Both the position numbers and the translations under genes were made by a program. A DNA stretch of 36,596 nucleotides from assembly GCA_013202955.1 (NCBI GenBank), contig JABMPP010000039.1, positions 1 through 36,596 on the forward strand. The letters are read 5' to 3'. Below the pieces are notes generated by a model. The model worked only from the letters and a program-made list of their open reading frames with translations, made no database searches and was not told the origin of the DNA. Source of the DNA: Candidatus Woesearchaeota archaeon. GTDB lineage: Archaea; Nanobdellota; Nanobdellia; Woesearchaeales; JABMPP01. This document shows, piece by piece, positions 2,499-20,690 of the stretch; within the stretch, counting starts at the first letter, position 1, and every line of letters starts with the position of its first letter.

Positions 2499-3140
2499 AT
2501 GGAAACAAAAGATATTGTAAAAAAAGGCACAACAACAGTAGGTATTGTGTGCAGTGATGGTATTATTCTAGCTGCTGATAAAAGAGCAACTGCAGGAAAC
2601 TATATAGTGACAAAGCAGGTTAAGAAGATATACCAGATAGCTGATAATGCTTCTGTTACAATGGCCGGAACTGTGTCAGATGCACAGTTAATGGTAAAGC
2701 TAATCAAGGCAGAGACAGCTCTTAAAAAGATGAGAACAGGAAGACAACCATTGATAAAAGAGGTTGCGAATCTTCTTGGAACCTTAGTATACTCAAACAT
2801 AAGAAAAATGTCAATGATACCAGGCATTTCCCATTTTGTTATGGGTGGTTTTGACGAAACAGGATATCATCTTTATGATATATTCGCTGACGGCTCTGTA
2901 ACACTATGTGATGATTTTATATCTTCAGGATCTGGAAGTGTTATGGCATATGGTGTTCTGGAAACATTGTATAAGAAAGGTATTTCAGTTGAAGAAGGAG
3001 CAAAGCTTGCAGTTAAGTGTATAAATGCTGCACTGCAAAGGGATTCTGCTTCTGGCGGCGGTATGGATGTTGTGGCAATCACAAAAGGCGGAATTAAAAC
3101 TGTTCTAGACAAGGAATTAAATCAAAAAATAGAATTTTAA
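2499..3140 (+). CDS. psmB: Proteasome subunit beta
   Basis: Propeptide then KG|TTTVG, AADKRAT, SGSGS, RDSASGG; adjacent to aCPSF1 as is typical in archaea. Confidence 0.96.
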   Translation: METKDIVKKGTTTVGIVCSDGIILAADKRATAGNYIVTKQVKKIYQIADNASVTMAGTVSDAQLMVKLIKAETALKKMRTGRQPLIKEVANLLGTLVYSNIRKMSMIPGISHFVMGGFDETGYHLYDIFADGSVTLCDDFISSGSGSVMAYGVLETLYKKGISVEEGAKLAVKCINAALQRDSASGGGMDVVAITKGGIKTVLDKELNQKIEF

Positions 3141-3188
3141 ATTTCCCAAAATGGAAATAAAAATGTATTCTTAAAATAAGGTGTAATT

Positions 3189-5081
3189 ATGGGTGAAATA
3201 CTAAAGGAAGTTTTAAAATACCTTCCTAAAGATATAATAAGTGAAGCTACTTTTGAAGGTTCTAATATAGTGCTATATACAAAAGATAAGGATTTTTTTC
3301 TAGATAATAATGGTTCAATAAAACAAATAGTTGATGATATAAAGAAAAGAGTCGAACTAAGACCAGATCCTGTTATATGCATGGAGCTGGAAAAAGCAGA
3401 GAAAAAGATAAAATCAATACTTCCTGCTGAAGCAGGAGCAGATAATATTATATTTGATCCACAAAGGTCAATGGTTATTATTGAGGCTGAAAAGCCAGGA
3501 TTAGCAATAGGAAAGCAGGGAAGCATATTAAGAGAAATAAGAGCTGAAACATTATGGGTTCCGTTGATTAGAAGAACACCTGCAATAAGATCAAAATTAA
3601 TAGAAAACATAAGGGAAGTTCTTTATCAAAATAATGATTATAGGAAAAAGTTTCTGAAAAGTGTTGGACATAGAATATATGATGGCTGGAAAAGAGGAAA
3701 AAAGAATGAATGGGTGAGGTTAAGCTTTTTAGGAGGTGCAAGAGAAGTAGGAAGATCATGTATTTTACTACAAACCCCAGAATCAAGAGTGCTTCTTGAC
3801 TGTGGAATTAATGTTGCTTCTGAAAGAGATGCGTATCCTTTTTTGGATGCTCCTGAATTCAAGATAGAAGAATTAGATGCTGTTATTATTTCACACGCAC
3901 ATCTGGATCACTCAGGATTTGTGCCTTATTTATATAAATTTGGCTATAAAGGGCCTGTTTACTGCACAGAACCAACAAGAGACGTATCAGCTCTGTTACA
4001 GCTAGACCTTGTAAAAATACAAAGAGGAGAGGGAAAAGAGCCAATATTCACATCTGAGGAGATTAGGGAGTTTGTAAAACACTCAATAACTCTGGAATAT
4101 AATGAAGTTAGTGATATAACTCCTGATATTAGAATAACATTGTATAATGCAGGCCATATACTTGGTTCATCCATGGTTCATATGCATATTGGGAATGGTT
4201 TGCACAATTTCCTTTATTCAGCTGATATGAAATTCGGCAGAACACAACTTTTAGAGCCTGCTATAACTGATTTTCCAAGACTTGAAACATTAATGATTGA
4301 ATCCACATATGGTGGAAGAGATAATGTTCTGCCTTCAAGGGTGGAATGCGAAAAAGAGATGGCTGAAATACTTAAAAAAACAATAAAAGATAAAGGAAAA
4401 ATATTGATTCCCGTGTTGGGAGTTGGAAGAGCACAAGAAGTGATGCTTGTTGTTGAAAATCTTATAAGAACAGGTAAGGTTGATAATATTCCTGTTTATA
4501 TTGATGGTATGGTGTGGGATGTTACTGCAATACACACAGCATATCCTGAATTCCTTAATAATTTTGTAAGGAATCAAATATTTCATAAAGATAGTAATCC
4601 CTTTATGTCAGACATATTTAAGAGAGTAGGAAGCCCCAAGGAAAGAAAAGAGGTTATAGAAAATACAGGTGCATGTATTATTTTAGCAACATCAGGAATG
4701 CTTATGGGTGGACCTTCTGTTGAGTATCTAAAATCATTGTCTTCTGGCAAAAAACATTCATTGATATTTGTTTCATATCAAGGAGAGGGCTCTTTGGGAA
4801 GAAGAATCCAAAGAGGAGAAAGGGAGATTTCTTTTGGTGTTGGACATAAGCAGGAAGTGATGAAAATAAATATGGATATACATACAATAGAAGGATTTTC
4901 AGGACATTCTGATAGAAAAGAATTAATGAGCTTTGTCTATAAATGCAGTCCAAAGCCAAAAAAAGTTATTATAAACCACGGTGAGAATTCAAGATGTTTA
5001 GATTTAGCTTCTTCTATTCATAAAACAAACAGAATAGAAACAAACGCACCAAGAGTGTTAGAAGCATTAAGACTTAGATAG
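3189..5081 (+). CDS. fttA: Beta-CASP ribonuclease aCPSF1 / transcription termination factor FttA
   Basis: N-terminal KH domains (PGLAIGKQG), LGGAREVGRS, HAHLDH, AGHILGS, GFSGHSD, NHGE. Confidence 0.95.
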   Translation: MGEILKEVLKYLPKDIISEATFEGSNIVLYTKDKDFFLDNNGSIKQIVDDIKKRVELRPDPVICMELEKAEKKIKSILPAEAGADNIIFDPQRSMVIIEAEKPGLAIGKQGSILREIRAETLWVPLIRRTPAIRSKLIENIREVLYQNNDYRKKFLKSVGHRIYDGWKRGKKNEWVRLSFLGGAREVGRSCILLQTPESRVLLDCGINVASERDAYPFLDAPEFKIEELDAVIISHAHLDHSGFVPYLYKFGYKGPVYCTEPTRDVSALLQLDLVKIQRGEGKEPIFTSEEIREFVKHSITLEYNEVSDITPDIRITLYNAGHILGSSMVHMHIGNGLHNFLYSADMKFGRTQLLEPAITDFPRLETLMIESTYGGRDNVLPSRVECEKEMAEILKKTIKDKGKILIPVLGVGRAQEVMLVVENLIRTGKVDNIPVYIDGMVWDVTAIHTAYPEFLNNFVRNQIFHKDSNPFMSDIFKRVGSPKERKEVIENTGACIILATSGMLMGGPSVEYLKSLSSGKKHSLIFVSYQGEGSLGRRIQRGEREISFGVGHKQEVMKINMDIHTIEGFSGHSDRKELMSFVYKCSPKPKKVIINHGENSRCLDLASSIHKTNRIETNAPRVLEALRLR

Positions 5082-9153: not shown

Positions 9154-10143
9154 TTAAAGCATCTTAATTACATCTATTAATCTATTACTATATCCCCATT
9201 CATTGTCATACCAAGAAACTATATCTACAAAATCATTCTGAATCACTCTTGTGAATGCTGAGTCATAGATAGAAGAATGTGGATTGCCGATAATATCAGA
9301 AGAAACCAAATGTCCATCAGAGAACTCTAATATCCCTTTCAGTTCATTTTGAGCAACTGATCTAAACAAATTATCCAACTCCTCTTTAGATGTTCCTTTC
9401 TTTAAATCAACAGAAAAATCAACCAATGAGCCGTCTGCAACAGGCACTCTCATTGCCATTCCATCTAATCTATCTTTTAACTCAGGAATAACCAATGCAA
9501 CTGCTTTTGCAGCTCCTGTTGTTGTTGGCACAATATTTGTTGCAGCTGCTCTTCCTCTTCTTAAATCCTTATGAGACGCATCAACTATTCTCTGGTCTGC
9601 TGTATAAGAATGAACAGTTACCATGAATCCTCTTTGTATTCCAAAATTATCATTTAAAACTTTAGCAATTGGAGCTAAACAATTAGTTGTGCATGATGCA
9701 TTGCTAACAACATGGTCTTTGTCCTTATTATAGCTATGCTCATTAACTCCCATCACAATTGTTTTGACCTCATCTTTTGCAGGAGCAGATATCAACACTT
9801 TTTTTGCACCTGCTTTCAGATGTTTTGAAGCAAGTTCTTTTGTTCTGAAGAATCCAGTGCTCTCAACAACAACATCTATTCCTAAATCCTGCCATGGAAG
9901 TTTTTCAGGGTCTTTTTCAGCAAAAATCTTTAATTCCTTTCCATTAATAATAAGAGAGTTATCTTCTGCTTTTACATCAGCACCTAAAATCCCATGAACA
10001 GAATCATATTTAAGTAAATAAGCCAAGGAAGCAGTGTCTGAAAGATCATTTACAGCAACAAACTCAATATCAGGATCATTGAATCCTGCTCTGAATACTA
10101 ACCTTCCTATTCTTCCAAAACCATTGATAGCAACTCTTACGAT
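9154..10143 (-). CDS. gap: Type I (bacterial-type) glyceraldehyde-3-phosphate dehydrogenase; no canonical in-frame start codon
   Basis: Frame extends beyond the ORF track start (10026) to (I)VRVAINGFGRIGR at 10143; SNASCTTNCL, WYDNEWGYS. Confidence 0.9.
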   Translation of the reverse strand: MVRVAINGFGRIGRLVFRAGFNDPDIEFVAVNDLSDTASLAYLLKYDSVHGILGADVKAEDNSLIINGKELKIFAEKDPEKLPWQDLGIDVVVESTGFFRTKELASKHLKAGAKKVLISAPAKDEVKTIVMGVNEHSYNKDKDHVVSNASCTTNCLAPIAKVLNDNFGIQRGFMVTVHSYTADQRIVDASHKDLRRGRAAATNIVPTTTGAAKAVALVIPELKDRLDGMAMRVPVADGSLVDFSVDLKKGTSKEELDNLFRSVAQNELKGILEFSDGHLVSSDIIGNPHSSIYDSAFTRVIQNDFVDIVSWYDNEWGYSNRLIDVIKML

Positions 10144-10185
10144 TTTTATTACCTCTTTTTTTCCAAATTTCTTACAGTTGATAGC

Positions 10186-10229: not shown

Positions 10230-13200
10230 CTAACCATTTTTCATCTCCGCTTCCTTTTCAGCAATCTTTAATCTTGTTTTAATAACAGTGTCAGGATTCA
10301 ATGAGATTGAATCAATTCCTTGCTCAACCAAAAATTGTGCAAAATCCTCATAATCGCTTGGTGCTTGACCACATATTCCTATTTTTCTGTTTTTCTCTTT
10401 AGCTGTATGTATAACTTGTGAGATTAATCTTTTAACTGCTTCATTTCTTTCATCATAAATAGAGGAAACTAACTCAGAATCTCTATCTAATCCTAATGTT
10501 AACTGTGTAAGGTCATTTGAGCCTATTGAGAACCCGTCAAATATCTCAGCAAACTGATCAGCTAATATAACATTGGAAGGAATCTCACACATAACATAAA
10601 CCTCTAAATGATTTTCTCCTCTTTTTAATCCGTTTTTTTCCATCTCAGCAAGCACCTTTTTGCCCTCTTCAACAGTTCTGCAAAATGGAACCATAATTTT
10701 TATGTTAGTTAACCCAAAAACATCTCTTACTTTCTTTAAAGCTCTACATTCTAGTGCAAATGCATCTTTATAATTCACATTATAATATCTAGAAGCACCT
10801 CTCCAACCTATCATTGGATTTTCTTCAACTGGTTCATAGAGCTTTCCTCCTACTAAATTAGCATACTCATTGCTCTTGAAATCGCTTAATCTTACAATAA
10901 CATCATTTGGATAAAAGGCAGCTCCTAATATTGCGACACCTTCAGCTAATTTGTCAACAAAAAACTCTGTTTTGTCCTCATAACCTTTAGTACGCTTCTC
11001 TATTTCTGCTTTTACTTTCTTGTCTTTTAAACTATTAAAATTCAACAAAGCATTTGGGTGTATACCAATATGAGAATTTATAATAAACTCTTCTCTTGCC
11101 AATCCTACTCCATCATTTGGCAGAAAACTATACTCAAATGCGTGTTCAGGAGAACCAAGATTCATCATTATTTTTGTTCTTGTTTTAGGAATATTCTCAA
11201 GATTGATTGATTTTACACCAAAAGTGACTAATCCTTCATATACATAACCTTCCTCTCCTTGAGAGCAGTCAACTGTAACACTTTTCACGTCTTTTAATTT
11301 TTCAGTGCCATTTCCTGTTCCAACAATACACGGAATCCCCATTTCTCTTGAGATAATAGCTGCATGACAATTATTTACCAATAGGGGGGTATATCTTTCA
11401 CTAAATACTATGTAATTGTGGTTGTCTTCAACAGTTATGTTATAAACATCATCAACTCCTAAATCTTTAACAAATGAAACTCTTGTTTGTCTAAAATCAG
11501 AACTTAAAATCCTAGAGATATTACTCTTTGTTTTTTTATCCAGTAAATTTAAAGACGTTGAAATCAATTTTTCATCAATTAACAAGTTTTTTCTTATTCT
11601 GTTATTAATTTCTGAATTAGTCCATTTTCTGAATAATTGTTTTGTATTAAAGAATCTTGTTCCCATTGTTCTAAAATCTTTGCATGTCACTCTTTTGGTG
11701 AATCTATTCAGTTCGTTAAGTTTTTCAACTATCTGAACATTGTGGATATTTCTATTTGTTGAAACTTGAGGAACAATTCCAATTCTTAAACAAGATATTA
11801 TCACTGGTTCAAGCAGTTCTTGTTTTGAAATGTAAATACTAATCCTTCCTTTTGAAAATGTCCCATCACCATCAATAACTCCTCCTAAAAAATTATAAGC
11901 CACACTTTCATCAGTTTGTAGCAACATTTCAGTAATTGATTCCATTTCAAGCTTTAATTCTCTTGCAATTAGTTTTGAATAACACCTATATGAATTTGCA
12001 TTTCCAATAACTTTTTCTCCCCTAATAAAGCCTTCTGAAGGTTTTTTTGGACTTTCCCTAAATGTTTTATTATAGGTTGCTTGTAAACATTTATTCATTT
12101 TTGTAATAAATCTTTTTTTCTCCTCTATAGGTTTTTGAATAAAAGTAACCTCTCCATGGGTTCTTGATTGATAAATATGTCCATCTGTCATTAATCCACC
12201 TAATAAATATGCAATATTTTGTTCTTTTTGAGTTGACTTAGTCAATTGTGGAATACTTTGTGCAACCAATAAACATTCCTTATTGTTTAATATATCTTTG
12301 ATTTTAGAATCAATGAGTTTTCCATCTCTAATATTCAACATTTTATGATCTGGGGTAATTTTTAAAAAATTGTTTTTCATTCTTCCACTTTGAGAAGAAC
12401 AAGTTTTGATCAATTTTCCTTTTTTCTTCATTACAGCCTGAATATTTTTCCATTCGGTTTTTAATGTTTTCCTGTTTAAAGAAGGCACTTTTAATCCTTC
12501 ATATCCTCCTTCAAAAACATTTTTTAGACTTCTAAATCCTTTATCAGTTAGAATCTTTGTATCTCCTGAAAAACATGTTCTTCCACCTCTATTTGTAACA
12601 ATAGCAGCTGCTATTTTCATTATTGGCTCCCAATCAGGATCAGTCATGTCTGTTACTAAAACATCACCTTTGTTGAACTTATGAATATCTTTTGCCTTCA
12701 TGATCATATTTACTTTTCCAGCACCTATTTTTTCTCCAACACTCTTTCCTGTCACTAATTTATTTCCTTTGCCTCTTAACTCATAATGGTCAATTTTTTT
12801 CACGCTTTTTTGAGAATGAACTGTTTCTGGTCTTGCCTGCACTATGAATAATTCATTTGTGTTTCCATCTTTTGCCCATTCCATATCCATTGGCTTGTAA
12901 TGGCCTGCTTTATGAGAATAATGATCCTCAATAATACACGCCCACTCTGAAAGCTTTATCAGCTCATCATCAGAAAGCACAAACTTTTCTCTGTCTGTTT
13001 GCTTTACAGGGATATTTTTTGTTGGTGTTTTTCCTTCTGCATACACCATTCTTATTTTTTTGTCACCAATTTTTTTGCTTATTATAGATTTGAATCCTTT
13101 TTTCATTGTTGGCTTGAAAACATAATATTCATCTGGGTTTACTGCTCCCTGCACAACATTTTCTCCTAATCCATAAGCTGCTGTTATGAAAACAACATTT

Positions 13201-13844
13201 TGAAATCCAGATTCAGTATCAATAGAAAACATCACTCCAGAGTTTGCTTTATCGCTTCTGACCATCTTCTGCACTCCAATGCTCAATCCAATTGAAAAAT
13301 GGTCAAATCCTTTATCTTCTCTGTAGCTAATAGCTCTGTTTGTAAACAATGAAGCAAAGCAGTTCTTGCATGCCTCAACAAGCTGTTTATCACCTTTTAT
13401 GTTTAAATATGTCTCTTGCTGGCCTGCAAAACTCGCATCAGGAAGATCCTCAGCAGTTGCAGAGCTTCTAACAGCAACATCAGTATTTTTTCCATACTGC
13501 TTTTGCATATGATGATAACCCTCTTTTATAGCATCCTCAACCTCTTTTGGAAGCTTGGCATTTCTTATCAAATCTCTTACTTTTTTCCCTCTTTCAGCAA
13601 GATTCTTAACATCTTTTGTGTTTAGATCTGACAAAACCTTTTTTATTTTCTCACGTATTTTTGAGTGATCTAAAAGATAATGATAAGCATGAGCTGTAAC
13701 AGCATAACCATTTGGAATATTTACTCCTTTATCTGTCAGATTCTTATACATCTCACCTAAAGAAGCATTTTTCCCTCCAACATGTTTGACATCTTCTATT
13801 CCTAACTGGTCAAACCATAGAATGAGTGCTTTCCCCTTGTCCAT
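10230..13844 (-). CDS. ppsA: Phosphoenolpyruvate synthase, intein-containing
   Basis: VGGKNASLGEM, AVRSSATAEDLP, QARPETV, GGRT|CHAAI, GFSIGSNDLTQ, GICGQAPSD; start at MDKGK (13844) downstream of a TATA box. Confidence 0.96.
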   Translation of the reverse strand: MDKGKALILWFDQLGIEDVKHVGGKNASLGEMYKNLTDKGVNIPNGYAVTAHAYHYLLDHSKIREKIKKVLSDLNTKDVKNLAERGKKVRDLIRNAKLPKEVEDAIKEGYHHMQKQYGKNTDVAVRSSATAEDLPDASFAGQQETYLNIKGDKQLVEACKNCFASLFTNRAISYREDKGFDHFSIGLSIGVQKMVRSDKANSGVMFSIDTESGFQNVVFITAAYGLGENVVQGAVNPDEYYVFKPTMKKGFKSIISKKIGDKKIRMVYAEGKTPTKNIPVKQTDREKFVLSDDELIKLSEWACIIEDHYSHKAGHYKPMDMEWAKDGNTNELFIVQARPETVHSQKSVKKIDHYELRGKGNKLVTGKSVGEKIGAGKVNMIMKAKDIHKFNKGDVLVTDMTDPDWEPIMKIAAAIVTNRGGRTCFSGDTKILTDKGFRSLKNVFEGGYEGLKVPSLNRKTLKTEWKNIQAVMKKKGKLIKTCSSQSGRMKNNFLKITPDHKMLNIRDGKLIDSKIKDILNNKECLLVAQSIPQLTKSTQKEQNIAYLLGGLMTDGHIYQSRTHGEVTFIQKPIEEKKRFITKMNKCLQATYNKTFRESPKKPSEGFIRGEKVIGNANSYRCYSKLIARELKLEMESITEMLLQTDESVAYNFLGGVIDGDGTFSKGRISIYISKQELLEPVIISCLRIGIVPQVSTNRNIHNVQIVEKLNELNRFTKRVTCKDFRTMGTRFFNTKQLFRKWTNSEINNRIRKNLLIDEKLISTSLNLLDKKTKSNISRILSSDFRQTRVSFVKDLGVDDVYNITVEDNHNYIVFSERYTPLLVNNCHAAIISREMGIPCIVGTGNGTEKLKDVKSVTVDCSQGEEGYVYEGLVTFGVKSINLENIPKTRTKIMMNLGSPEHAFEYSFLPNDGVGLAREEFIINSHIGIHPNALLNFNSLKDKKVKAEIEKRTKGYEDKTEFFVDKLAEGVAILGAAFYPNDVIVRLSDFKSNEYANLVGGKLYEPVEENPMIGWRGASRYYNVNYKDAFALECRALKKVRDVFGLTNIKIMVPFCRTVEEGKKVLAEMEKNGLKRGENHLEVYVMCEIPSNVILADQFAEIFDGFSIGSNDLTQLTLGLDRDSELVSSIYDERNEAVKRLISQVIHTAKEKNRKIGICGQAPSDYEDFAQFLVEQGIDSISLNPDTVIKTRLKIAEKEAEMKNG
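11370..12575 (-). mobile_element. Intein (402 aa) with LAGLIDADG homing endonuclease in ppsA
   Basis: Starts CFSGDT, block B TPDH, LAGLIDADG-like YLLGGLMTDG and FLGGVIDGDG, block F DVYNITVEDNHNY, ends LVNN followed by Cys+1. Confidence 0.95.
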
Positions 13845-13920
13845 TTTAATCTTAAACCATTCAGATGAGTATATAAACATTTGTTAGTATCAAGAAATGA
13901 TAAAAACCACTGTTTTTTCC

Positions 13921-13934
13921 AAAAGCTTTAAATC
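13921..13934 (+). promoter_or_regulatory. BRE/TATA promoter of sigma-70 gene
   Basis: AAAAGC-TTTAAATC about 25 nt upstream of ATG 13960, similar spacing to other promoters in the window. Confidence 0.6.
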
Positions 13935-13959
13935 TACTCTGTTTTTTCTGGACACTAAC

Positions 13960-14844
13960 ATGGATTACATTGATAAAAAACCCAAAAGTGGTCTTACTGT
14001 TTATATGGAAGAGATAGGAAAACCTGAGTATGATCCTCTTACACCTAATCAGGAAGTGTTGCTTGCTCAGAGGATAAAACAAGGAGACCAAGAAGCATTT
14101 TTTGAATTATTTAAACACAACCTAAGATTTGTTATTTCTGCTGCAAAAATGTTTAATAACTATTCTGACAAAATGTCTCTTGAAGACAGAATACAAGCAG
14201 GAAATATGGGTCTGTTTGAAGCAGCCAAAAGATATGATGAAACAAGAGGGTTTAAATTCATAACATACGCAGTGTGGTGGATAAAACAAAGAATAAGAAG
14301 TGCTTATTTTGAAAAATATAAGTATGTTGTTAAATTGCCAATGAACAGGCAAGCACTAATTGGAAAAATAAAAGAGAACCATGAAACATTCCTTGCAGTA
14401 AACGAAGGAAGAGAACCAACTTCTTATCAGTTAATAGATCTAATGAAACAAACGAGCGGAAAACTGCCTAATTTTTGTAATGTAGATGATATTTACTTAG
14501 ATGGTGTTCATATTGAAAAATCTTTAGATCAAAATCTTTGGGAAGATGATAAAAGACAAGTCTACAATAAAATTCCCGACACTAGTTCACTAGATCCTGA
14601 AAAATATTCTATGCAGACAAATGGGCATGAAGATATAGAAAAATTACTTTCGCTTCTTGATAAAAGAAGCCGTACAATAGTATGCATGTATTTAGGTATT
14701 GATGGATATCAGAAACTAACTCTTGAAGAGATAGGAACTGAGTTTGGTTTTACCAGAGAGCGTGCAAGACAGATAAAAAGAGATGCTCTAATCACGTTAA
14801 GACATCCTGCACATAAAGAACTTGTGATGAATTTAGTTGATTAA
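13960..14844 (+). CDS. Sigma-70 family RNA polymerase sigma factor (short RpoD/RpoS-like, no region 1.1)
   Basis: Region 1.2 YMEEIG..LT...E..LA; region 2 NLRFVIS, IQAGNMGL.EAA.RYD.TRGFKFITYAVWWIKQ; region 3 REPT, SLDQ; region 4 TLEEIG..FGFTRERARQI. Confidence 0.93.
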   Translation: MDYIDKKPKSGLTVYMEEIGKPEYDPLTPNQEVLLAQRIKQGDQEAFFELFKHNLRFVISAAKMFNNYSDKMSLEDRIQAGNMGLFEAAKRYDETRGFKFITYAVWWIKQRIRSAYFEKYKYVVKLPMNRQALIGKIKENHETFLAVNEGREPTSYQLIDLMKQTSGKLPNFCNVDDIYLDGVHIEKSLDQNLWEDDKRQVYNKIPDTSSLDPEKYSMQTNGHEDIEKLLSLLDKRSRTIVCMYLGIDGYQKLTLEEIGTEFGFTRERARQIKRDALITLRHPAHKELVMNLVD

Positions 14845-15356
14845 GGTATTCTTCTTAATTGTTTTATTAGATAACTGTCTTTGTCATCAGAGATTGTTTT
14901 TGCTTCTTCTTGTTTTATGGGTACTGTTTTTTCCTTCTCAAACTCACCCACAACTTTAGAATTATCTTTTAACTCCAGCTCAACAGTTGACATCTCTTCT
15001 TCTGAAAGCTGTTTTGGCTCCCATTGAAAATCTATTCCATCATTCTGCTTTCTTGGAATAATATTCACAGCAAAATGTGGCTGTTCTTGACCTGCAGGAA
15101 TTCCATTACTAACCAATATATTTGTTCCCTGTAGTTTTAATGCTTCAAATAAATGTATAGATATCTTATTAACAATCTCAAACACATGGCTAACAATATA
15201 ATCAGGAACCTGTTCTATAATTGGGAAATGATCTTTTGGCATAACAATAACATGACCAAGAGAAACAGGATTTGGGTCAAGGACAGCAACAACTTTATCA
15301 TCTTCAAATATCTTGTTCCCATTCTTTACTTCATCGCAATGTTTGCAGCTGCTCAT
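14841..15356 (-). CDS. HIT family protein, degenerate triad
   Basis: CKHC, LDPNPVSLGH, NGIPAGQEQPHFAVNIIPR. Confidence 0.85.
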   Translation of the reverse strand: MSSCKHCDEVKNGNKIFEDDKVVAVLDPNPVSLGHVIVMPKDHFPIIEQVPDYIVSHVFEIVNKISIHLFEALKLQGTNILVSNGIPAGQEQPHFAVNIIPRKQNDGIDFQWEPKQLSEEEMSTVELELKDNSKVVGEFEKEKTVPIKQEEAKTISDDKDSYLIKQLRRIP

Positions 15357-16012
15357 TCTCCAAACATCACCCGTGCAATTGAATCAAGATCTGCTCCATT
15401 ATCCTCTTCTTTTTCTTTCTTTTTAGTTGGCTTTTTAACTAGTTTCTCTGTTTTTTTCTTAACTACCTTTTTCTTTGGTTTTTCTTTGAATTCAGCCTCG
15501 ACAACTTTTTGTTTTTTAGGTTTTTCAGCCGCTTCAAACTTGGTTTTTTGAAGCAAAATCTTTTTTATCTCATCTAGCTGTTTTGTTGTTGTTTTCTTTC
15601 TTTTAAGCTGAAAACAGTTTATTCCATCATTTTCTTTCCTTGGTATAATATGTATCATGAAATGAGGACTTTTTTGGCCTGCAACAACACCATTTGCAAC
15701 AAATATGTTTGTTCCTTGTGCTTTAAGAGCTTTTAAAACAGATTGGGAAAGAGCTTTTGCGACCATAAACAAATGCTTTACATCAGGTTCTGGTATTTGA
15801 GGCATTATTGTTTGGTGCTCTTTAGGCATAAGAAGAATATGGCCAGGATTAGCTGGATTTATATCTAAAATAGCAATGCAAACATCATCTTCATAGATTT
15901 TTTTAGACTGCACTTTGCCTGATATTATATGACAAAAAATACAGTTTTTCTTCTGTAATTCGACGAGCTCTTCAGGGCTCATGTTCTTTAAATCCTCTTC
16001 AGAAAGCTCCAT
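15353..16012 (-). CDS. HIT family protein, degenerate triad, Lys-rich C-terminal tail
   Basis: CIFC, LDINPANPGH, NGVVAGQKSPHFMIHIIPR. Confidence 0.85.
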   Translation of the reverse strand: MELSEEDLKNMSPEELVELQKKNCIFCHIISGKVQSKKIYEDDVCIAILDINPANPGHILLMPKEHQTIMPQIPEPDVKHLFMVAKALSQSVLKALKAQGTNIFVANGVVAGQKSPHFMIHIIPRKENDGINCFQLKRKKTTTKQLDEIKKILLQKTKFEAAEKPKKQKVVEAEFKEKPKKKVVKKKTEKLVKKPTKKKEKEEDNGADLDSIARVMFGE

Positions 16013-17950: not shown

Positions 17951-18817
17951 TTAATAAAATCCAGCATTGATTGTGGAAGCTCCTGCATCAATCTTGATCT
18001 CAATGTTGCTTTTGTCTGATTCATAGTCATCGCTGTAATAAACACCATCTTTCTTAGAAAACCCGTTAAAATTAGTTGATATTGCTCCACCGTCAACATC
18101 TATCATAACACCAGAGCCTTCAGGAAACATTAAGTTTAACGTACTTGCCCCTGTTGCAATCTGTGCTTTTGTTGGATAATTAGAAAACAATAGTTTTGTT
18201 GATGTTGCTCCTGAATCAATCTGCAAATTTTTAACAACCAATCCAGTCATGTTAAAATTCATGTCAGCTGCTCCATAATCAATCTCAACATCATACACAA
18301 TATTAGGTGATAATGTGATGTCCCAGCTATCTTTTATCTGTTTCCAAACAGCAACTCCTCCTTGCCTGCCCATGAATATATCAACATCTGAGCCTGTTCT
18401 CTCATATTCCAAAGTAGGATCTTCTTTATCATTTGTTTCAATAATATTACTTATTAAATAATATTCATCTCCTTTCCTTATATCCATGTTTCCAGCACCA
18501 TAATTTAATAATAAATCAACTGTTTTGTCTCCTTCAAGAGCAGGAACCTCAAGATTGGTTTTTCTCAAATCCCCAACCTCAAACATATCTGTTACATAAA
18601 CAGCCCCTATTAAAACAGTTATTAAAAGAAACACAAAAGCCATAAATCTTGACTTAAATAACAATGCAATCCCTGCTAATATAACTCCAATAGGCCAGAA
18701 TGTCTTGAATCCACTCCATACTGATAAATTCACAACACCCATTATCTTAAAAACAAAATATATTCCTATGAGAATGAAAAAAAATCCTAGGAAAGATCTT
18801 GCTGATGCCTTTTTCAC
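17951..18817 (-). CDS. LiaF/toast-rack-like membrane protein (envelope stress associated)
   Basis: N-terminal TMs with FWP...LAG, beta-repeat C-term (YGAG, GAA, GAT, GAS); GTG start after GGAGG overlapping pspC stop. Confidence 0.65.
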   Translation of the reverse strand: MKKASARSFLGFFFILIGIYFVFKIMGVVNLSVWSGFKTFWPIGVILAGIALLFKSRFMAFVFLLITVLIGAVYVTDMFEVGDLRKTNLEVPALEGDKTVDLLLNYGAGNMDIRKGDEYYLISNIIETNDKEDPTLEYERTGSDVDIFMGRQGGVAVWKQIKDSWDITLSPNIVYDVEIDYGAADMNFNMTGLVVKNLQIDSGATSTKLLFSNYPTKAQIATGASTLNLMFPEGSGVMIDVDGGAISTNFNGFSKKDGVYYSDDYESDKSNIEIKIDAGASTINAGFY

Positions 18818-19212
18818 TTTGATTTCCTCCCTATAAGATAAAGACCTAAAACTATAAGCAATGCAGCCCATATCAAGCTTGTGTTAATCCAACTAAAAAT
18901 ATTTTTTAACAACAAAATAGCACCAATAATCACAATTAATAATCCTAATAAAATAGTTCCGTGGCCATCTTTCTTTTTTGAAGATTTTTCTGCTTTTTCA
19001 ACTACTTTTTTAACATCTTTTTGAAGTGGATTTTCAGGGATAACAACCCAAGCAATTATATACATTATAACTCCAATACCATCAGCTAAAACCAATAAAA
19101 CAGCAAAAAGTCTTATCAATATTGTATCAATATTAAAATATTCAGCAATTCCACCACAAACACCAGCGATTACCTTATCTTGTTTTGACCTGTAAAGTTT
19201 TTTAGTACTCAT
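18814..19212 (-). CDS. pspC: PspC domain membrane protein
   Basis: KKLYRS.DKVIAGVCGGIAEYF...YIIAWVVIP; extra C-terminal TMs. Confidence 0.9.
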   Translation of the reverse strand: MSTKKLYRSKQDKVIAGVCGGIAEYFNIDTILIRLFAVLLVLADGIGVIMYIIAWVVIPENPLQKDVKKVVEKAEKSSKKKDGHGTILLGLLIVIIGAILLLKNIFSWINTSLIWAALLIVLGLYLIGRKSK

Positions 19213-19258
19213 GATATCAACCCCATTATGAGAAATATAACTAACTAATATATAAATT

Positions 19259-19696
19259 TTAAGAATTTTTAAACAAATCATTGATATATTTCTTTAATTT
19301 ATCGATTCTTGGTTTACTTATGAGTTTATCAACATAACCCAAAACTATTTCTTCATCAGTGTCGGAAAAAATTGTTCCTGTGAATAATACTTTAGGAGTA
19401 TCTTGATAAGCTTCAGCAAACTGATCAGGTGTTACATCATGTTTTGCGATAAGATTATCAATCATTATTTTTGGTTTTTCTTTCAGATACATAAAAACAT
19501 CCATACCAGATAACCATTTCATTCTAAGATCAGAAATAATTAAATCATATTTATTGTTTGGAAGAGCTTCTGCTAATTTTTCAACAAGATCAGTGCCATC
19601 AGGAACAGTAGTCACATCATGACCCAACATCCTGATAATTTTAGTCAAGTCGTCAACTAATTTTTTATGATCATCAGCAAGAATGATTTTTGCCAT
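19259..19696 (-). CDS. Stand-alone response regulator receiver (CheY-like)
   Basis: ILADD, DLIISDLRM (phospho-Asp), FTG, KP; no output domain. Confidence 0.85.
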   Translation of the reverse strand: MAKIILADDHKKLVDDLTKIIRMLGHDVTTVPDGTDLVEKLAEALPNNKYDLIISDLRMKWLSGMDVFMYLKEKPKIMIDNLIAKHDVTPDQFAEAYQDTPKVLFTGTIFSDTDEEIVLGYVDKLISKPRIDKLKKYINDLFKNS

Positions 19697-19721
19697 TTTC
19701 AACAGTAGAAATTATCTGAAC

Positions 19722-19823
19722 TTAAGAATCTTTGCCATTCCATTCTTTCATAAACTCATTTATATACAATTCCATGAACTTATGTCTTTTTTCAGCAATT
19801 TTTTTGCCTATCTCTGTGTTCAT
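19722..19823 (-). pseudogene. C-terminal remnant of an HD-domain (YpgQ/COG1418-like) protein
   Basis: MNTEIGKKIAEKRHKFMELYINEFMKEWNGKDS*, resembling that family's C-terminal helix; in-frame TGA just upstream. Confidence 0.6.
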
Positions 19824-19928
19824 TCAATATTTGTTATCTCTAACTAGTAGTTAAATAACCGAAACATTTATATACCTCATAAAAACACGAATAAATATAT
19901 AAATAAGATAATTAATGAGGAACAAATA

Positions 19929-20690
19929 ATGAACCAAGGAATTGATAATATTTTAGCAAAGGATATAACTAGTATTACCACTGATGATCTGGAAGAGATA
20001 AAAAGATTATATGGGGATCTTTATGAATCTAATGCTGTTAAGGAGCTAGTTTTGGATATTATTACCCATGACCTGAAAAATCCTGCTGGTGTGATTAGTG
20101 GAGTTAGTGCTATGCTAATAGATGAACTTCCTGATAATGAATTGGTACAATTGATAAAAGACACAAATGATGATTTGTTAAATGTTATATATAATTCAAC
20201 TACACTTTACAAAGCAACATCTGGTGAAGAGATTCAAAAAGATGAATTAGATCTTAATACAATTCTAAAAAGTGTTATTAAAGAATGTAAATCACCATTA
20301 AATACTGCTGGCATGGCTTTAGAATATGATGGTAAAGAATTACCTGTTTATGCAAATCCATTAATTGCAGAAGTGTTTAAGAATTATATAAGCAATGCTA
20401 TTAAATATGCATCAGATGGTGGAAAAATTGTTTTAGAAACCAGTCAAAGGGATGGATATATACAAGTGGCTGTTAGAGATTTTGGTGAGACAATACCAGA
20501 AGAAAACTATGAGAAAATATTCCAGCGTAGAACACAGCTTGAAAATGGAAAAAATAAAGGCAGAGGTTTAGGGCTTGCAATTGTTAAGCGTATTGCAGAA
20601 GCTCATGGTGGAAAGGTTGGGGTAGAGCCAAATAAACCTACTGGAAATTCTTTTTATTTAAGATTACCAGAATATAATCCTAAAGAATAG
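19929..20690 (+). CDS. Cytoplasmic histidine kinase (HisKA + HATPase_c) with no evident sensor domain
   Basis: H-box THDLKNP, N-box NYISNAIKY, DFG, IFQ, GRGLGLAIV. Confidence 0.92.
   Translation: MNQGIDNILAKDITSITTDDLEEIKRLYGDLYESNAVKELVLDIITHDLKNPAGVISGVSAMLIDELPDNELVQLIKDTNDDLLNVIYNSTTLYKATSGEEIQKDELDLNTILKSVIKECKSPLNTAGMALEYDGKELPVYANPLIAEVFKNYISNAIKYASDGGKIVLETSQRDGYIQVAVRDFGETIPEENYEKIFQRRTQLENGKNKGRGLGLAIVKRIAEAHGGKVGVEPNKPTGNSFYLRLPEYNPKE

What the first reader, a model, noticed from the sequence alone, without database searches (positions are those of the whole stretch)
13921..14844. Intact bacterial-type sigma-70 factor in an archaeal chromosome, behind an archaeal promoter
Seen: regions 1.2, 2, 3 and 4 are all present, including the melting motif TYAVWW and the -35 HTH TRERARQI. 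A BRE/TATA lies about 25 nt before ATG 13960, and the stop overlaps the convergent HIT stop (TTAA, 14841-14844), arguing it is integrated in this chromosome. Known: archaeal RNAP initiates via TBP/TFB/TFE (tfe is in this window) and does not use sigma. Inference: it is either a repurposed DNA-binding regulator or a protein aimed at a bacterial partner's or host's RNAP, plausible for a symbiotic DPANN cell. I cannot say from here whether such homologs have already been described.
Basis: partly seen in the sequence, partly recalled or inferred. Interest (0 to 1): 0.85.

Follow-up and report, generated by a model that had tools for sequence, protein, structure and literature searches.

The report
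Bacterial sigma factor in DPANN archaeon
An intact bacterial-style sigma-70 gene sits in the chromosome of a tiny Woesearchaeota-type archaeon behind an archaeal promoter; such genes are already known to be common in this group, and what they do there is still unknown.

Summary
ATG 13960 to TAA 14844 encodes a 294-aa sigma-70 family protein. Pfam finds regions 1.2, 2 and 4. Region 3 is folded in the model, but Pfam does not detect it.

The contig is archaeal on both sides. The gene lies between PEP synthase and two HIT genes, which are directly adjacent in both same-family genomes. GC content, codon usage, read depth and an independent assembly all fit the host chromosome. A BRE/TATA matching this genome's own promoter consensus lies 41 nt before the ATG.

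The nearest named relatives are short primary sigmas of FCB-group bacteria (37-43% identity). The protein keeps 67 of 90 positions that those bacteria conserve, including the -10 melting and -35 recognition residues. That argues for purifying selection.

The genome encodes TBP, TFB, TFE and only an archaeal RNA polymerase. The polymerase's clamp lacks the three residues that E. coli beta' needs to bind sigma.

This is not new as a phenomenon. Castelle et al. 2021 reported sigma-70 genes in DPANN, prevalent in Woesearchaeota. I found region 2 in 167 of 401 genomes of the phylum.

Function remains inferred. The most likely reading is a domesticated promoter-type DNA-binding regulator. Rivals are a partner of the archaeal polymerase, or a protein aimed at a bacterial polymerase.

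The parts
13960..14844 (+). Sigma-70 family CDS, 294 aa plus stop (protein P0001)
   Evidence: AlphaFold2 model has mean pLDDT 88.1. The top Foldseek hits shown are sigma chains, mostly from RNA polymerase complexes, best E 1.2e-16.
13919..13934 (+). Archaeal BRE/TATA promoter element CCAAAAGCTTTAAATC. It begins 41 nt before the ATG and implies a (near-)leaderless mRNA.
   Evidence: The genome-wide matrix has consensus CCGAAAGATTTATAAA, most often starting at -38. This site scores 6.63 bits. That score is reached by 1.6% of intragenic controls and 35.5% of gene upstream regions.
13996..14094 (+). Region 1.2 (residues 13-45)
   Evidence: PF00140, 1.5e-6
14107..14307 (+). Region 2 (residues 50-116). 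Includes the 2.2 helix DRIQAGNMGL and the 2.3/2.4 motif FKFITYAVWWIKQ.
   Evidence: PF04542, 3.9e-14. Alignment to E. coli RpoD shows D403, Q406, G408, N409, Y430, W433, W434 and Q437 kept.
14341..14499 (+). Diverged region 3 (residues 128-180), predicted as a three-helix domain
   Evidence: No PF04539 hit at E<=10. Aligned to region 3 of solved SigA chains. Helices 128-147, 155-166 and 176-179 in the model.
14500..14595 (+). Region 3.2-like linker (residues 181-212). Keeps the SLD motif; acidic residues follow it.
   Evidence: Alignment. S506 and D508 equivalents kept. Block pLDDT 56-80.
14647..14805 (+). Region 4 (residues 230-282) with the recognition helix TRERARQIKRDA
   Evidence: PF04545, 1.9e-12. 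R584, E585, R586, R588 and Q589 equivalents kept.
14841..14844 (.). TTAA, where the sigma stop and the convergent HIT stop overlap
10230..13880 (-). Left flank: PEP synthase with an intein. It is divergent from sigma, and the shared 79-nt intergenic region holds both promoters.
   Evidence: Orthologues in G001 and G002 lie directly next to the HIT pair.
14841..16012 (-). Right flank: two tandem HIT-family genes (14841-15356 and 15353-16012)
   Evidence: Both are conserved next to PEP synthase in G001 and G002, 55-69% identity.

Best explanation
This is a laterally acquired sigma-70 family gene of the short, region-1.1-less, primary-sigma type found in FCB-group bacteria. A Woesearchaeota-type DPANN archaeon has kept it.

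Shown:
- It is a single-gene insertion or deletion difference in an otherwise conserved PEP synthase/HIT neighbourhood.
- It is fully adapted to the host's base composition and codon usage.
- It is preceded by a BRE/TATA that fits the host's own promoter consensus at leaderless-mRNA distance.
- It is conserved at the positions that bacterial sigmas conserve.

Inferred:
- It is expressed by the archaeal TBP/TFB/TFE machinery.
- It acts inside the archaeal cell as a sequence-specific, promoter-type DNA-binding regulator. The region 4 helix-turn-helix would read a -35-like duplex element. Region 2 would possibly read or open an AT-rich -10-like element, modulating archaeal initiation.
- It is not a subunit of a bacterial-type polymerase, because none is encoded.
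- It lacks the autoinhibitory region 1.1, so unaided DNA binding is plausible (established knowledge on sigma-70; not tested here).

Sub-confidences: real, integrated and selectively maintained gene about 0.9; this particular mechanism about 0.35-0.4.
For: Integration:
- Archaeal genes lie on both sides.
- In same-family genomes G001 and G002, PEP synthase and HIT1-HIT2 are adjacent, with gaps of about 70 and 225 nt and no sigma.
- A 2552-nt Logan contig of run X1 spans 12862-15413 with one mismatch. Its depth is 11.8, against 11 and 17.5 for the neighbouring contigs.

Amelioration:
- Gene GC is 0.33 and GC3 is 0.221. The genome's 767 ORFs average 0.325+-0.029 and 0.244+-0.045.
- Codon-usage likelihood is at the 45th percentile.
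- The 80 bacterial homologue genes have GC 0.33-0.67, median 0.46.

Promoter.

Selection:
- The window keeps 67 of 90 positions that are >=90% conserved in 15 non-redundant FCB bacterial sigmas. Its sister P0003 keeps 66 of 90.
- It matches only 15 of 87 variable positions.
- Conservation profiles of archaeal and bacterial FCB-type sigmas correlate at r=0.75.
- A tandem sigma pair in another genome of the order (G041) has dN/dS 0.275.

DNA-contact residues kept: Y430, W433, W434, Q437, R584, E585, R588, Q589.

No bacterial polymerase found:
- The only rpoC-like locus is the split archaeal Rpo1N/Rpo1C.
- No alpha-CTD was found.
- Rpo2 is split into B''/B'.
- TBP and two TFB genes are present.

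Canonical docking sites are not conserved:
- E. coli beta' R275, E295 and A302 correspond to I, L and H in this Rpo1N. Their role is taken from passages of PMC8321222.
- The flap-tip region of Rpo2 is not alignable.

Cytoplasmic protein: maximum 15-aa hydropathy is 0.68, and the first 40 residues are below 0.
Against: - No experiment and no RNA data bear on expression.
- The protein also keeps parts that matter only in a holoenzyme: the region 2.2 core-binding helix (D403, Q406, G408, N409) and the SLD motif of region 3.2. Long relatives in the order even keep region 1.1. A mere DNA binder would be expected to relax these.
- No target motif was found. The FCB-type promoter pattern is not enriched in the genome (129 observed against 135.9+-11.4 simulated).
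- No conserved neighbouring gene hints at a regulon. Among 290 ORFs at 19 loci, only the sigma family recurs at more than two loci.
- Among 400 other genomes of the order, the closest copy is only 42% identical. The window's lineage is rare, and orthologue-based selection tests are not possible.
Confidence: 0.38

Rival explanations
1. The sigma works on the archaeon's own RNA polymerase. It would bind the Rpo1N clamp coiled-coil, which is the homologue of the beta' sigma-docking site and the site used by TFE and Spt5. It would act either as an alternative initiation or melting factor, or as a competitor that modulates initiation.
For: - The region 2.2 helix, the aromatic melting residues and the SLD motif of region 3.2 are conserved in archaeal copies as in bacteria.
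- Long relatives keep region 1.1.
- The only polymerase found in the genome is archaeal.
- The archaeal coiled-coil aligns without gaps to beta' 233-310.
- Sigma genes occur in 167 of 401 genomes of the phylum, which suggests a cell-internal role.
Against: - The three beta' residues reported as needed for sigma binding (R275, E295, A302; PMC8321222 passages) are I, L and H in this Rpo1N.
- The coiled-coil segment is almost entirely invariant across the 29 aligned Woesearchaeota-type Rpo1N sequences. I did not check which of those genomes carry a sigma.
- The flap-tip helix that docks region 4 is not recognisable in Rpo2. The same paper states its absence is common in archaea.
- TBP, TFB and TFE are all present.
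Confidence: 0.17
2. The sigma is made for a bacterial RNA polymerase outside the archaeal cell, that of a bacterial host or partner. It would re-programme that cell's transcription, as phage-encoded sigmas do. The donor lineage (FCB-type here, standard type in most other Woesearchaeales) would reflect the partner.
For: - Constraints match those of true holoenzyme subunits, while the cell's own polymerase lacks the docking residues.
- At least two distinct sigma types occur in one archaeal order, separated by a branch with 95% SH-aLRT support. Archaeal rows are scattered in at least 6 places.
- The distribution is patchy and accessory-like, with tandem arrays and no conserved context.
- Castelle et al. 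2021 raise the possibility that some DPANN have bacterial hosts (passage).
Against: - There is no signal peptide or hydrophobic segment.
- No secretion or transfer system is linked to the gene.
- No conserved neighbour was found.
- The hosts of Woesearchaeota are unknown.
- Nothing in the window points to a bacterial partner.
- Protein transfer from a DPANN cell into a bacterium has, to my knowledge, not been shown (recalled, not searched).
Confidence: 0.12
3. The gene is a non-functional passenger: a transferred bacterial (or virus-borne) gene that happens still to be intact and will decay.
For: - It is absent from both same-family genomes at this site.
- No close orthologue was found in 400 genomes of the order (best 42% identity).
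- Region 3 and region 2.4/3.0 have diverged, with small insertions.
- No expression data exist.
- Viruses carry similar sigmas: 186 IMG/VR stretches, best 40% identity. DPANN viral genes annotated rpoS are reported in PMC12647753 (passages).
Against: - Composition and codon usage are completely host-like, which implies long residence. Even so, 294 codons stay open in a 33% GC genome.
- A host-type promoter lies at the right distance.
- Conserved positions are kept at 74%, against 17% at variable ones.
- The sister P0003 is also intact at 47-48% identity and shares derived features: RERARQIK and a 1-aa insert after region 2.4.
- The gene is packed with overlapping stops in a 1.2-Mb streamlined genome.
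- No phage or integrase genes were seen among the window ORFs scanned (not all ORFs were scanned).
Confidence: 0.12
4. The gene is an artefact: a chimeric assembly or a misbinned bacterial contig.
For: - The genome is a 124-contig MAG, 87% complete with 3.2% contamination.
- Only one sequencing run holds the stretch, and it may be the source of the assembly.
Against: - Archaeal marker genes lie on the same 36.6-kb contig on both sides.
- Flanking genes are syntenic with same-family archaeal genomes to within 80 nt of the sigma gene.
- An independent assembler's contig bridges both junctions at even depth.
- Codon usage is typical of the genome.
- Closed or nearly closed genomes of the order also carry sigma genes (G018, 1 contig; G030, 3 contigs).
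Confidence: 0.02

Closest known systems
Sigma-70 family genes of DPANN archaea (fam00359 of Castelle et al. 2021, Front Microbiol, PMC8204110)
   Same: Both are bacterial-type sigma-70 homologues encoded in Woesearchaeota-type genomes beside TBP, TFB and TFE, with no anti-sigma factor and unknown function (passages read). My own count agrees: Sigma70_r2 in 167 of 401 genomes of the phylum and in 0 of 4 control archaea.
   Different: - The paper's passages give no subtype, promoter, synteny or residue analysis. Its Supplementary Table 3 could not be opened, so I cannot tell whether this gene or its subtype is listed.
- The window's copy belongs to a minority FCB-like short type. Most copies in the order are of the standard type: 14 of 19 rows and 16 of 26.
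Short primary sigma factors (RpoD/SigA-named, about 280-290 aa, no region 1.1) of FCB-group bacteria (Bacteroidota, Calditrichota, Ignavibacteriota, Latescibacterota, Gemmatimonadota)
   Same: - They are the best named matches: 38-43% identity over 89-98% of the length, and all 80 best genome loci are bacterial, nearly all of FCB-group phyla, at 37-42%.
- Length and domain order are the same.
- Signature motifs are shared: RFDETRGFKFISYAVWWI, VRLPLN and TRERVRQIKEKA.
   Different: - The host is an archaeon with no bacterial core polymerase.
- Region 3 is no longer recognised by Pfam.
- Region 2.4/3.0 is rewritten: WWIKQRIRSAYFEKYKYVVKLPMN, with a 1-aa insert and R at the position of E. coli T440.
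- There are extra inserts at residues 25-26, 70-71 and 175-181.
- Scores fall below every NCBIfam RpoD/RpoS equivalog cut-off.
E. coli RpoD/RpoS and B. subtilis SigA (group 1/2 sigmas with solved holoenzyme structures)
   Same: The window protein aligns end to end from region 1.2 to 4.2 (7ckq_F, 3e-38). The predicted fold matches sigma chains, mostly from RNA polymerase complexes. The melting residues and -35 residues are identical.
   Different: There is no region 1.1 and no non-conserved insert. E407 is replaced by A and L404 by R in the core-binding helix. The partner polymerase is absent from the genome.
Virus-encoded sigma factors, including the 'rpoS' auxiliary genes reported from DPANN viruses (PMC12647753)
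   Same: Sigma-70 family proteins occur outside a bacterial chromosome. 186 IMG/VR stretches carry the YAVWWIKQ-type motif. One reported DPANN prophage carries an rpoS-like gene (passages).
   Different: The window gene is a solitary gene between housekeeping genes, and no viral genes were seen in the ORFs scanned. Viral copies are no closer (at most 40% identity) than bacterial ones.
MzaA, the sigma-70-like protein of the MZA anti-phage system
   Same: The sigma part matches the C-terminal third of the model (PADLOC 1.5e-28, profile positions 428-659 of 683; NCBIfam 153 bits).
   Different: Only the generic sigma domain matches. The N-terminal two thirds of MzaA are absent, the NCBIfam cut-off (800 bits) is far from met, and no Mza partner genes are nearby.

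Membership tests
Sigma-70 family | Region 2 domain (core binding, -10 recognition) | tested here: met
   PF04542, 52.6 bits against a cut-off of 24. Y430, W433, W434 and Q437 equivalents present.
Sigma-70 family | Region 4 helix-turn-helix (-35 recognition) | tested here: met
   PF04545, 46.9 bits against a cut-off of 24.1. R584, E585, R586, R588 and Q589 equivalents present.
Sigma-70 family, groups 1-2 | Region 1.2 | tested here: met
   PF00140, 28.5 bits against a cut-off of 22
Sigma-70 family, groups 1-3 | Region 3 | tested here: inconclusive
   No PF04539 hit at E<=10. The segment aligns with region 3 of solved SigA chains and is predicted as three helices with block pLDDT 76-91.
Group 1 (housekeeping) sigma of the E. 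coli type | Region 1.1 | tested here: not met
   There is no PF03979 hit and no room for it, because the protein starts 12 residues before region 1.2. FCB primary sigmas lack it too (none of the listed hits carries PF03979).
RpoD / RpoS equivalogs (NCBIfam) | Score above the curated equivalog cut-off | tested here: not met
   The best scores are TIGR02394 at 161.7 bits (cut-off 378.7) and TIGR02393 at 154.2 bits (cut-off 354). Only the TIGR02937 superfamily model passes, at 84.1 bits against 42.9.
Sigma factor (functional definition) | Binds a bacterial core RNA polymerase and directs promoter-specific initiation | not testable with these tools
   No bacterial core is encoded in the 87%-complete genome. 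This needs biochemistry.
Sigma factor (functional definition) | Docking residues present on the resident polymerase (beta' R275, E295, A302; beta flap-tip helix) | tested here: not met
   The equivalents in Rpo1N are I, L and H. The flap-tip segment of Rpo2 is not alignable. Residue roles are taken from PMC8321222 passages.
DPANN sigma-70 genes (Castelle et al. 2021) | Encoded on a contig whose other genes are archaeal and DPANN-like | tested here: met
   The nearest named homologues of aCPSF1 (71-75% identity) and Rpo1N (77-84%) are 'Candidatus Woesearchaeota archaeon' or 'Nanoarchaeota archaeon'. Synteny with same-family archaeal genomes is conserved.
MzaA (MZA defence system) | Full-length match including the N-terminal two thirds, with Mza partner genes nearby | tested here: not met
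   Only profile positions 428-659 of 683 are matched. The score is 153 bits against a cut-off of 800.

The most novel reading that the evidence does not exclude
Woesearchaeal sigma factors are not used on the archaeal polymerase at all. They are kept to programme a bacterial RNA polymerase, that of a bacterial host or partner cell, in the way phage sigmas hijack their hosts. The sigma subtype (FCB-like here, standard type in most relatives) would then report the phylum of the partner. This would explain three observations: every holoenzyme-specific surface is still conserved; the cell's own clamp lacks the docking residues; and the genes are patchy, multi-copy and context-free.
Probability: 0.1. 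Interest if true: 0.9.

Novelty: new member of a known kind. Interest (0 to 1): 0.5.

Why it matters
Archaea initiate transcription with TBP, TFB and TFE. A sigma factor under purifying selection in a cell without a bacterial polymerase is a real, still unanswered puzzle, and it was first noted in print in 2021.

This copy is a convenient test case. It is short (294 aa), lacks region 1.1, stands alone, has a defined archaeal promoter, and has a clear 'empty site' in sister genomes.

Three outcomes are possible, and each would matter:
- It binds DNA on its own. That would show how a core bacterial initiation factor can be recycled into an archaeal regulator.
- It docks on an archaeal polymerase. 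That would blur a textbook boundary between the domains.
- It drives a bacterial polymerase. That would be the first molecular evidence that some DPANN archaea manipulate bacterial partners.

The finding that one archaeal order holds at least two sigma types of different bacterial ancestry is a small addition to what the paper passages report.

Tried and rejected
- **Complex prediction.** I submitted Rpo1N residues 1-330 (alignment A2) with sigma residues 1-128 (alignment A1). The score was 0.00 in two runs and controls were not run. There is no verdict, so this is not evidence either way.
- **Expression.** The look-up of sequencing runs listed no RNA holder. It listed one DNA run that holds the stretch and may be the source, plus two same-study runs with next to none of its words. 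This says nothing about expression.
- **Target promoters.** The FCB-type promoter pattern TTTG-N17-23-TAnnTTTG is a consensus recalled from memory. It occurs 129 times in the genome, against 135.9+-11.4 in 10 first-order Markov simulations. There is no enrichment. The window's sigma may read something else.
- **Conserved neighbours.** I compared 290 ORFs from the window part and 18 loci around sigma genes of the order. Only the sigma family itself (25 members at 19 loci) recurs at more than two loci.
- **Polarity of the indel.**
  - PEP synthase loci were fetched from 29 other genomes. 26 have at least 1490 nt upstream of the gene.
  - Only G001 and G002 have HIT there; 24 have neither HIT nor sigma.
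  - There is therefore no outgroup for the PEPS-HIT junction. Gain in the window's genus is merely the more parsimonious reading.
  - With the Pfam region 2 model, G001 has one weak match (9.7e-5) elsewhere in its genome.
- **Mobile-element scars.** A 12-nt exact direct repeat lies at 13909-13920 and 14923-14934 and brackets the gene. Two unrelated 13-nt exact repeats occur in the same 1.5 kb, and the right copy lies inside the HIT coding sequence. I treat it as chance.
- **Viral origin.** 186 IMG/VR stretches encode relatives, best 40% identity, no closer than bacteria. There is no specific support.
- **MzaA membership.** Rejected.
- **N-terminal extensions of long relatives.** Apart from region 1.1 in two of ten proteins, Pfam finds no domain in the extensions and no archaeal polymerase-binding module.
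- **Orthologue dN/dS for the window gene.** Not possible. The only closer sequence (P0003) is 47-48% identical and I had no DNA for it.
- **Trees.**
  - One search was a FastTree of 199 rows. Rows dropped before the tree: P0002 (self); P0122, P0131, L010 and L018 (coverage or length filter); all but every tenth of P0004-P0121; and all but every fourth of the 80 bacterial loci.
  - One search was an IQ-TREE quick run of 83 hand-picked rows.
  - Support around the window's position is weak (81-87) apart from window+P0003 (98-99). A common origin with the G567 and G212 copies is suggested, not shown.
- **Literature.** Searches found only PMC8204110 and PMC12647753 on the topic. Castelle's Supplementary Table 3 and Supplementary Fig. 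11 of the 2025 paper might bear on whether this subtype was already seen.
- **Unpublished genomes.** G363, G277 and G420 and G501, G475, G363 and G547 enter only the tallies of those two calls. No sequence from them was used.
Full report
**The object.**
- The + strand carries an open frame from 13897 to 14844.
- Bacterial and archaeal homologues of 280-295 aa align from residue 2-12 of the form that starts at ATG 13960. The product is therefore most likely 294 aa (P0001).
- Pfam finds Sigma70_r1_2 (residues 13-45), Sigma70_r2 (50-116) and Sigma70_r4 (230-282), all above their cut-offs.
- Region 3 is not found even at E<=10. It is found in the archaeal relative P0123.
- The whole protein still aligns with solved housekeeping sigmas from region 1.2 to 4.2 (B. 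subtilis SigA 7ckq_F, 3e-38).
- An AlphaFold2 model built on 59 sequences has mean pLDDT 88.1. It shows sigma-2, a three-helix sigma-3, a low-confidence linker and sigma-4.
- The top Foldseek hits shown in the PDB are sigma chains, mostly from RNA polymerase complexes.
- NCBIfam places the protein nearest RpoS/RpoD-type models, but far below every equivalog cut-off.

**Is it really in an archaeal chromosome?** Yes.
- The window is a whole 36.6-kb contig (C26) of a 1.2-Mb, 124-contig genome that is 87% complete.
- The contig carries a proteasome beta subunit, aCPSF1/FttA, TFE-alpha, a wyosine-type radical-SAM enzyme and an intein-bearing PEP synthase.
- The nearest named homologues of aCPSF1 (71-75% identity) and of Rpo1N (77-84%) are labelled Candidatus Woesearchaeota or Nanoarchaeota archaeon.
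- In the two genomes of the same family (G001, G002), PEP synthase lies directly next to the same two HIT genes. The gaps are about 70 and 225 nt, and there is no sigma gene. The sigma gene is thus a clean single-gene difference in conserved synteny.
- A 2552-nt contig made by a different assembler (Logan) from run X1 covers 12862-15413 with one mismatch. Its depth is similar to that of its neighbours. The run may be the source sample, so this checks the assembly and not the biology.
- The gene's GC (0.33), GC3 (0.221) and codon usage (45th percentile of 767 ORFs) are those of the genome. The 80 closest bacterial genes range from 0.33 to 0.67 GC.

**Promoter.**
- From 873 ORF starts of this genome I derived a positional signal and a matrix with consensus CCGAAAGATTTATAAA. 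It most often starts 38 nt before the ATG, which is the signature of leaderless archaeal mRNAs.
- The sigma gene has CCAAAAGCTTTAAATC starting at -41 (13919-13934).
- Its score of 6.63 bits is reached by 35.5% of gene upstream regions and by 1.6% of intragenic controls.
- A second TATA-like element at 13870-13877 fits the divergent PEP synthase gene read from its Met-13 (by eye, not scored on that strand).

**Origin.**
- Among 5.8 billion clustered proteins, the only closer sequence is an unnamed 295-aa protein (P0003, 47-48% identity). All named top hits are about 280-290-aa primary sigmas of FCB-group bacteria at 38-43% identity.
- The 80 best loci in species-representative genomes are all bacterial, chiefly Calditrichota, Ignavibacteriota, Latescibacterota and Gemmatimonadota, at 37-42%.
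- Within the archaeon's own order, 23 of 60 other genomes have a match at E<=1e-3, and 39 of 400 at E<=1e-25. The best is only 42% identical (G567, identical to P0123).
- Trees (FastTree of 199 rows; IQ-TREE quick of 83 rows) split the family into two halves.
  - A standard half holds E. coli RpoD and most copies from the order: 14 of 19 and 16 of 26 rows.
  - An FCB-like half holds the window, P0003 (sister, support 98-99) and 10 other copies from the order. The archaeal rows there are scattered, with at least six changes forced by well-supported branches.
- The window's nearest tree neighbours include the copies from G567 and G212, with weak support (81-87).
- The alignment shows the two signatures plainly: [31 protein letters not shown] against RFDETRGFKFISYAVWWI..VRLPLN.
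- Long copies of the standard type even keep region 1.1.

**How common is it?**
- Sigma70_r2 is found in 167 of 401 sampled genomes of the phylum, in 145 of 281 genera. It is found in none of four control archaea from other phyla. The tally includes three unpublished genomes.
- This agrees with Castelle et al. 2021, who reported sigma-70 genes in DPANN. They describe them as 'particularly prevalent in Woesearchaeota', rule out misbinning, find no anti-sigma factors and leave the mechanism open (passages).
- A 2025 paper reports two rpoS-annotated genes in DPANN viruses (passages).
- The phenomenon is therefore known. This gene is a new member of it.

**Is it maintained by selection?**
- Of 90 positions that are at least 90% conserved in 15 non-redundant FCB bacterial sigmas, the window keeps 67 and P0003 keeps 66. 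At 87 variable positions the window matches the commonest residue only 15 times.
- Per-site conservation in archaeal and bacterial FCB-type sigmas correlates at r=0.75.
- The retained residues include:
  - the core-binding helix residues D403, Q406, G408 and N409;
  - the melting residues Y430, W433 and W434;
  - Q437;
  - S506 and D508 in the finger;
  - R584, E585, R586, R588 and Q589 in the -35 helix.
- Lineage-specific changes cluster in region 2.4/3.0. There is a 1-aa insert shared with P0003, and R or K at the position of E. coli T440. They also cluster in region 3.
- A tandem pair of standard-type sigmas in G041 gives dN/dS 0.275. This shows purifying selection on such genes inside an archaeal genome, though not on this one.

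**What could it act on?**
- The genome has TBP, two TFB genes and TFE.
- Its only rpoC-like locus is the split archaeal Rpo1N/Rpo1C, next to a split Rpo2. No alpha C-terminal domain was found.
- The archaeal clamp coiled-coil aligns without gaps to E. coli beta' 233-310. It has I, L and H where beta' has R275, E295 and A302. According to passages of PMC8321222, substitutions at those residues abolish holoenzyme formation.
- The flap-tip helix that holds region 4 has no alignable counterpart.
- The protein has no hydrophobic segment and a pI of 6.6.
- No gene is conserved next to sigma genes across 19 loci.
- An FCB-type promoter pattern is not enriched in the genome.

**Reading.** I weigh five readings.
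- *Domesticated DNA-binding regulator (about 0.38).* The safest mechanistic reading is a promoter-type DNA-binding protein expressed from an archaeal promoter. Most archaeal regulators are bacterial-type helix-turn-helix proteins that act at BRE/TATA (established knowledge). The weakness of this reading is that surfaces needed only in a holoenzyme are still conserved.
- *Partner of the archaeal polymerase (0.17).* This is weakened by the missing docking residues.
- *Programmes a bacterial partner's polymerase (0.12).* This has no transfer route.
- *Decaying passenger (0.12).* This is unlikely given the amelioration, the promoter and the site-specific conservation.
- *Artefact (0.02).*

**Verdict.** The phenomenon is already described in the literature, and this copy is a new member of a minority FCB-like subtype. 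It is of moderate interest as a clean test case for an open question.

Noticed in passing
window 10230-13880 (-): The PEP synthase carries an intein with a LAGLIDADG domain (Intein_splicing 4.9e-11, LAGLIDADG_3 2e-7). The orthologues in same-family genomes G001 and G002 are 808 aa and lack it.
   Followed up: partly
window 13842-13882 (-): PEP synthase probably starts at Met-13 (13844). Homologues align from residue 8-11, and a TTTATATA box (13870-13877) lies at -33 to -26 of that ATG on the minus strand. The 79-nt PEPS/sigma spacer would then hold two divergent promoters.
   Followed up: partly
G000:C88 132-1973 (locus L002): The same genome has a second sigma-like gene. It encodes 613 aa with only a Sigma70_r2 hit (residues 440-483) and, by eye, three similar N-terminal segments that no Pfam or PADLOC model matches.
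   Followed up: partly
L007/L117 (G041:C3 16510-20253); G021:C41; G034:C7: Other genomes of the order hold tandem arrays of sigma genes: four copies in G041, three in G021 and two in G034. The two best G041 copies are 80% identical, with dN/dS 0.275.
   Followed up: partly
L004, L007 (G016, G041): Long (454-684 aa) Woesearchaeales sigmas keep the full housekeeping architecture, including region 1.1. They also carry N-terminal extensions of up to about 330 residues with no known domain.
   Followed up: partly
P0135; G341:C5 268683-269513: Sigma domains are embedded in giant proteins. One is a 7852-aa metagenomic protein with a sigma domain at 3101-3352. Another is a 1763-aa open frame in a genome of the order.
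   Followed up: no
window 9154-10145 (-): The canonical GAPDH N-terminus (VRVAINGFGRIGR) lies upstream of the listed TTG start. It has no ATG, GTG or TTG before it. It appears to start at ATC or ATA behind a GAGGT Shine-Dalgarno-like motif.
   Followed up: no
whole genome G000: There is a strong genome-wide positional signal: A-rich at -36 to -33, T-rich at -31 to -28 and A-rich at -27 to -23 relative to the ATG. Most genes therefore seem to be leaderless. A weaker G-rich signal at -11 to -7 suggests a Shine-Dalgarno motif for some genes.
   Followed up: partly
window 17951-20690: A bacterial-style envelope-stress and signalling cluster is present: a LiaF/toast-rack protein, a PspC-domain protein, a response-regulator receiver and a histidine kinase.
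   Followed up: no
window 13909-13920 and 14923-14934: An exact 12-nt direct repeat ACTGTTTTTTCC brackets the sigma gene. Unrelated 13-nt exact repeats occur in the same 1.5 kb, so it is probably chance.
   Followed up: partly
window 14111: The Logan contig of run X1 reads G instead of T. This is codon 51, TTT to TGT (F51C in region 1.2/2.1), and it is the only difference in 2552 nt.
   Followed up: no
L111 (G000:C81 3749-6490): The longest Rpo1N frame begins with a lysine-rich extension of about 68 aa. It is absent from the gene-called form (P0390, 845 aa), and it is unclear whether it is translated.
   Followed up: no
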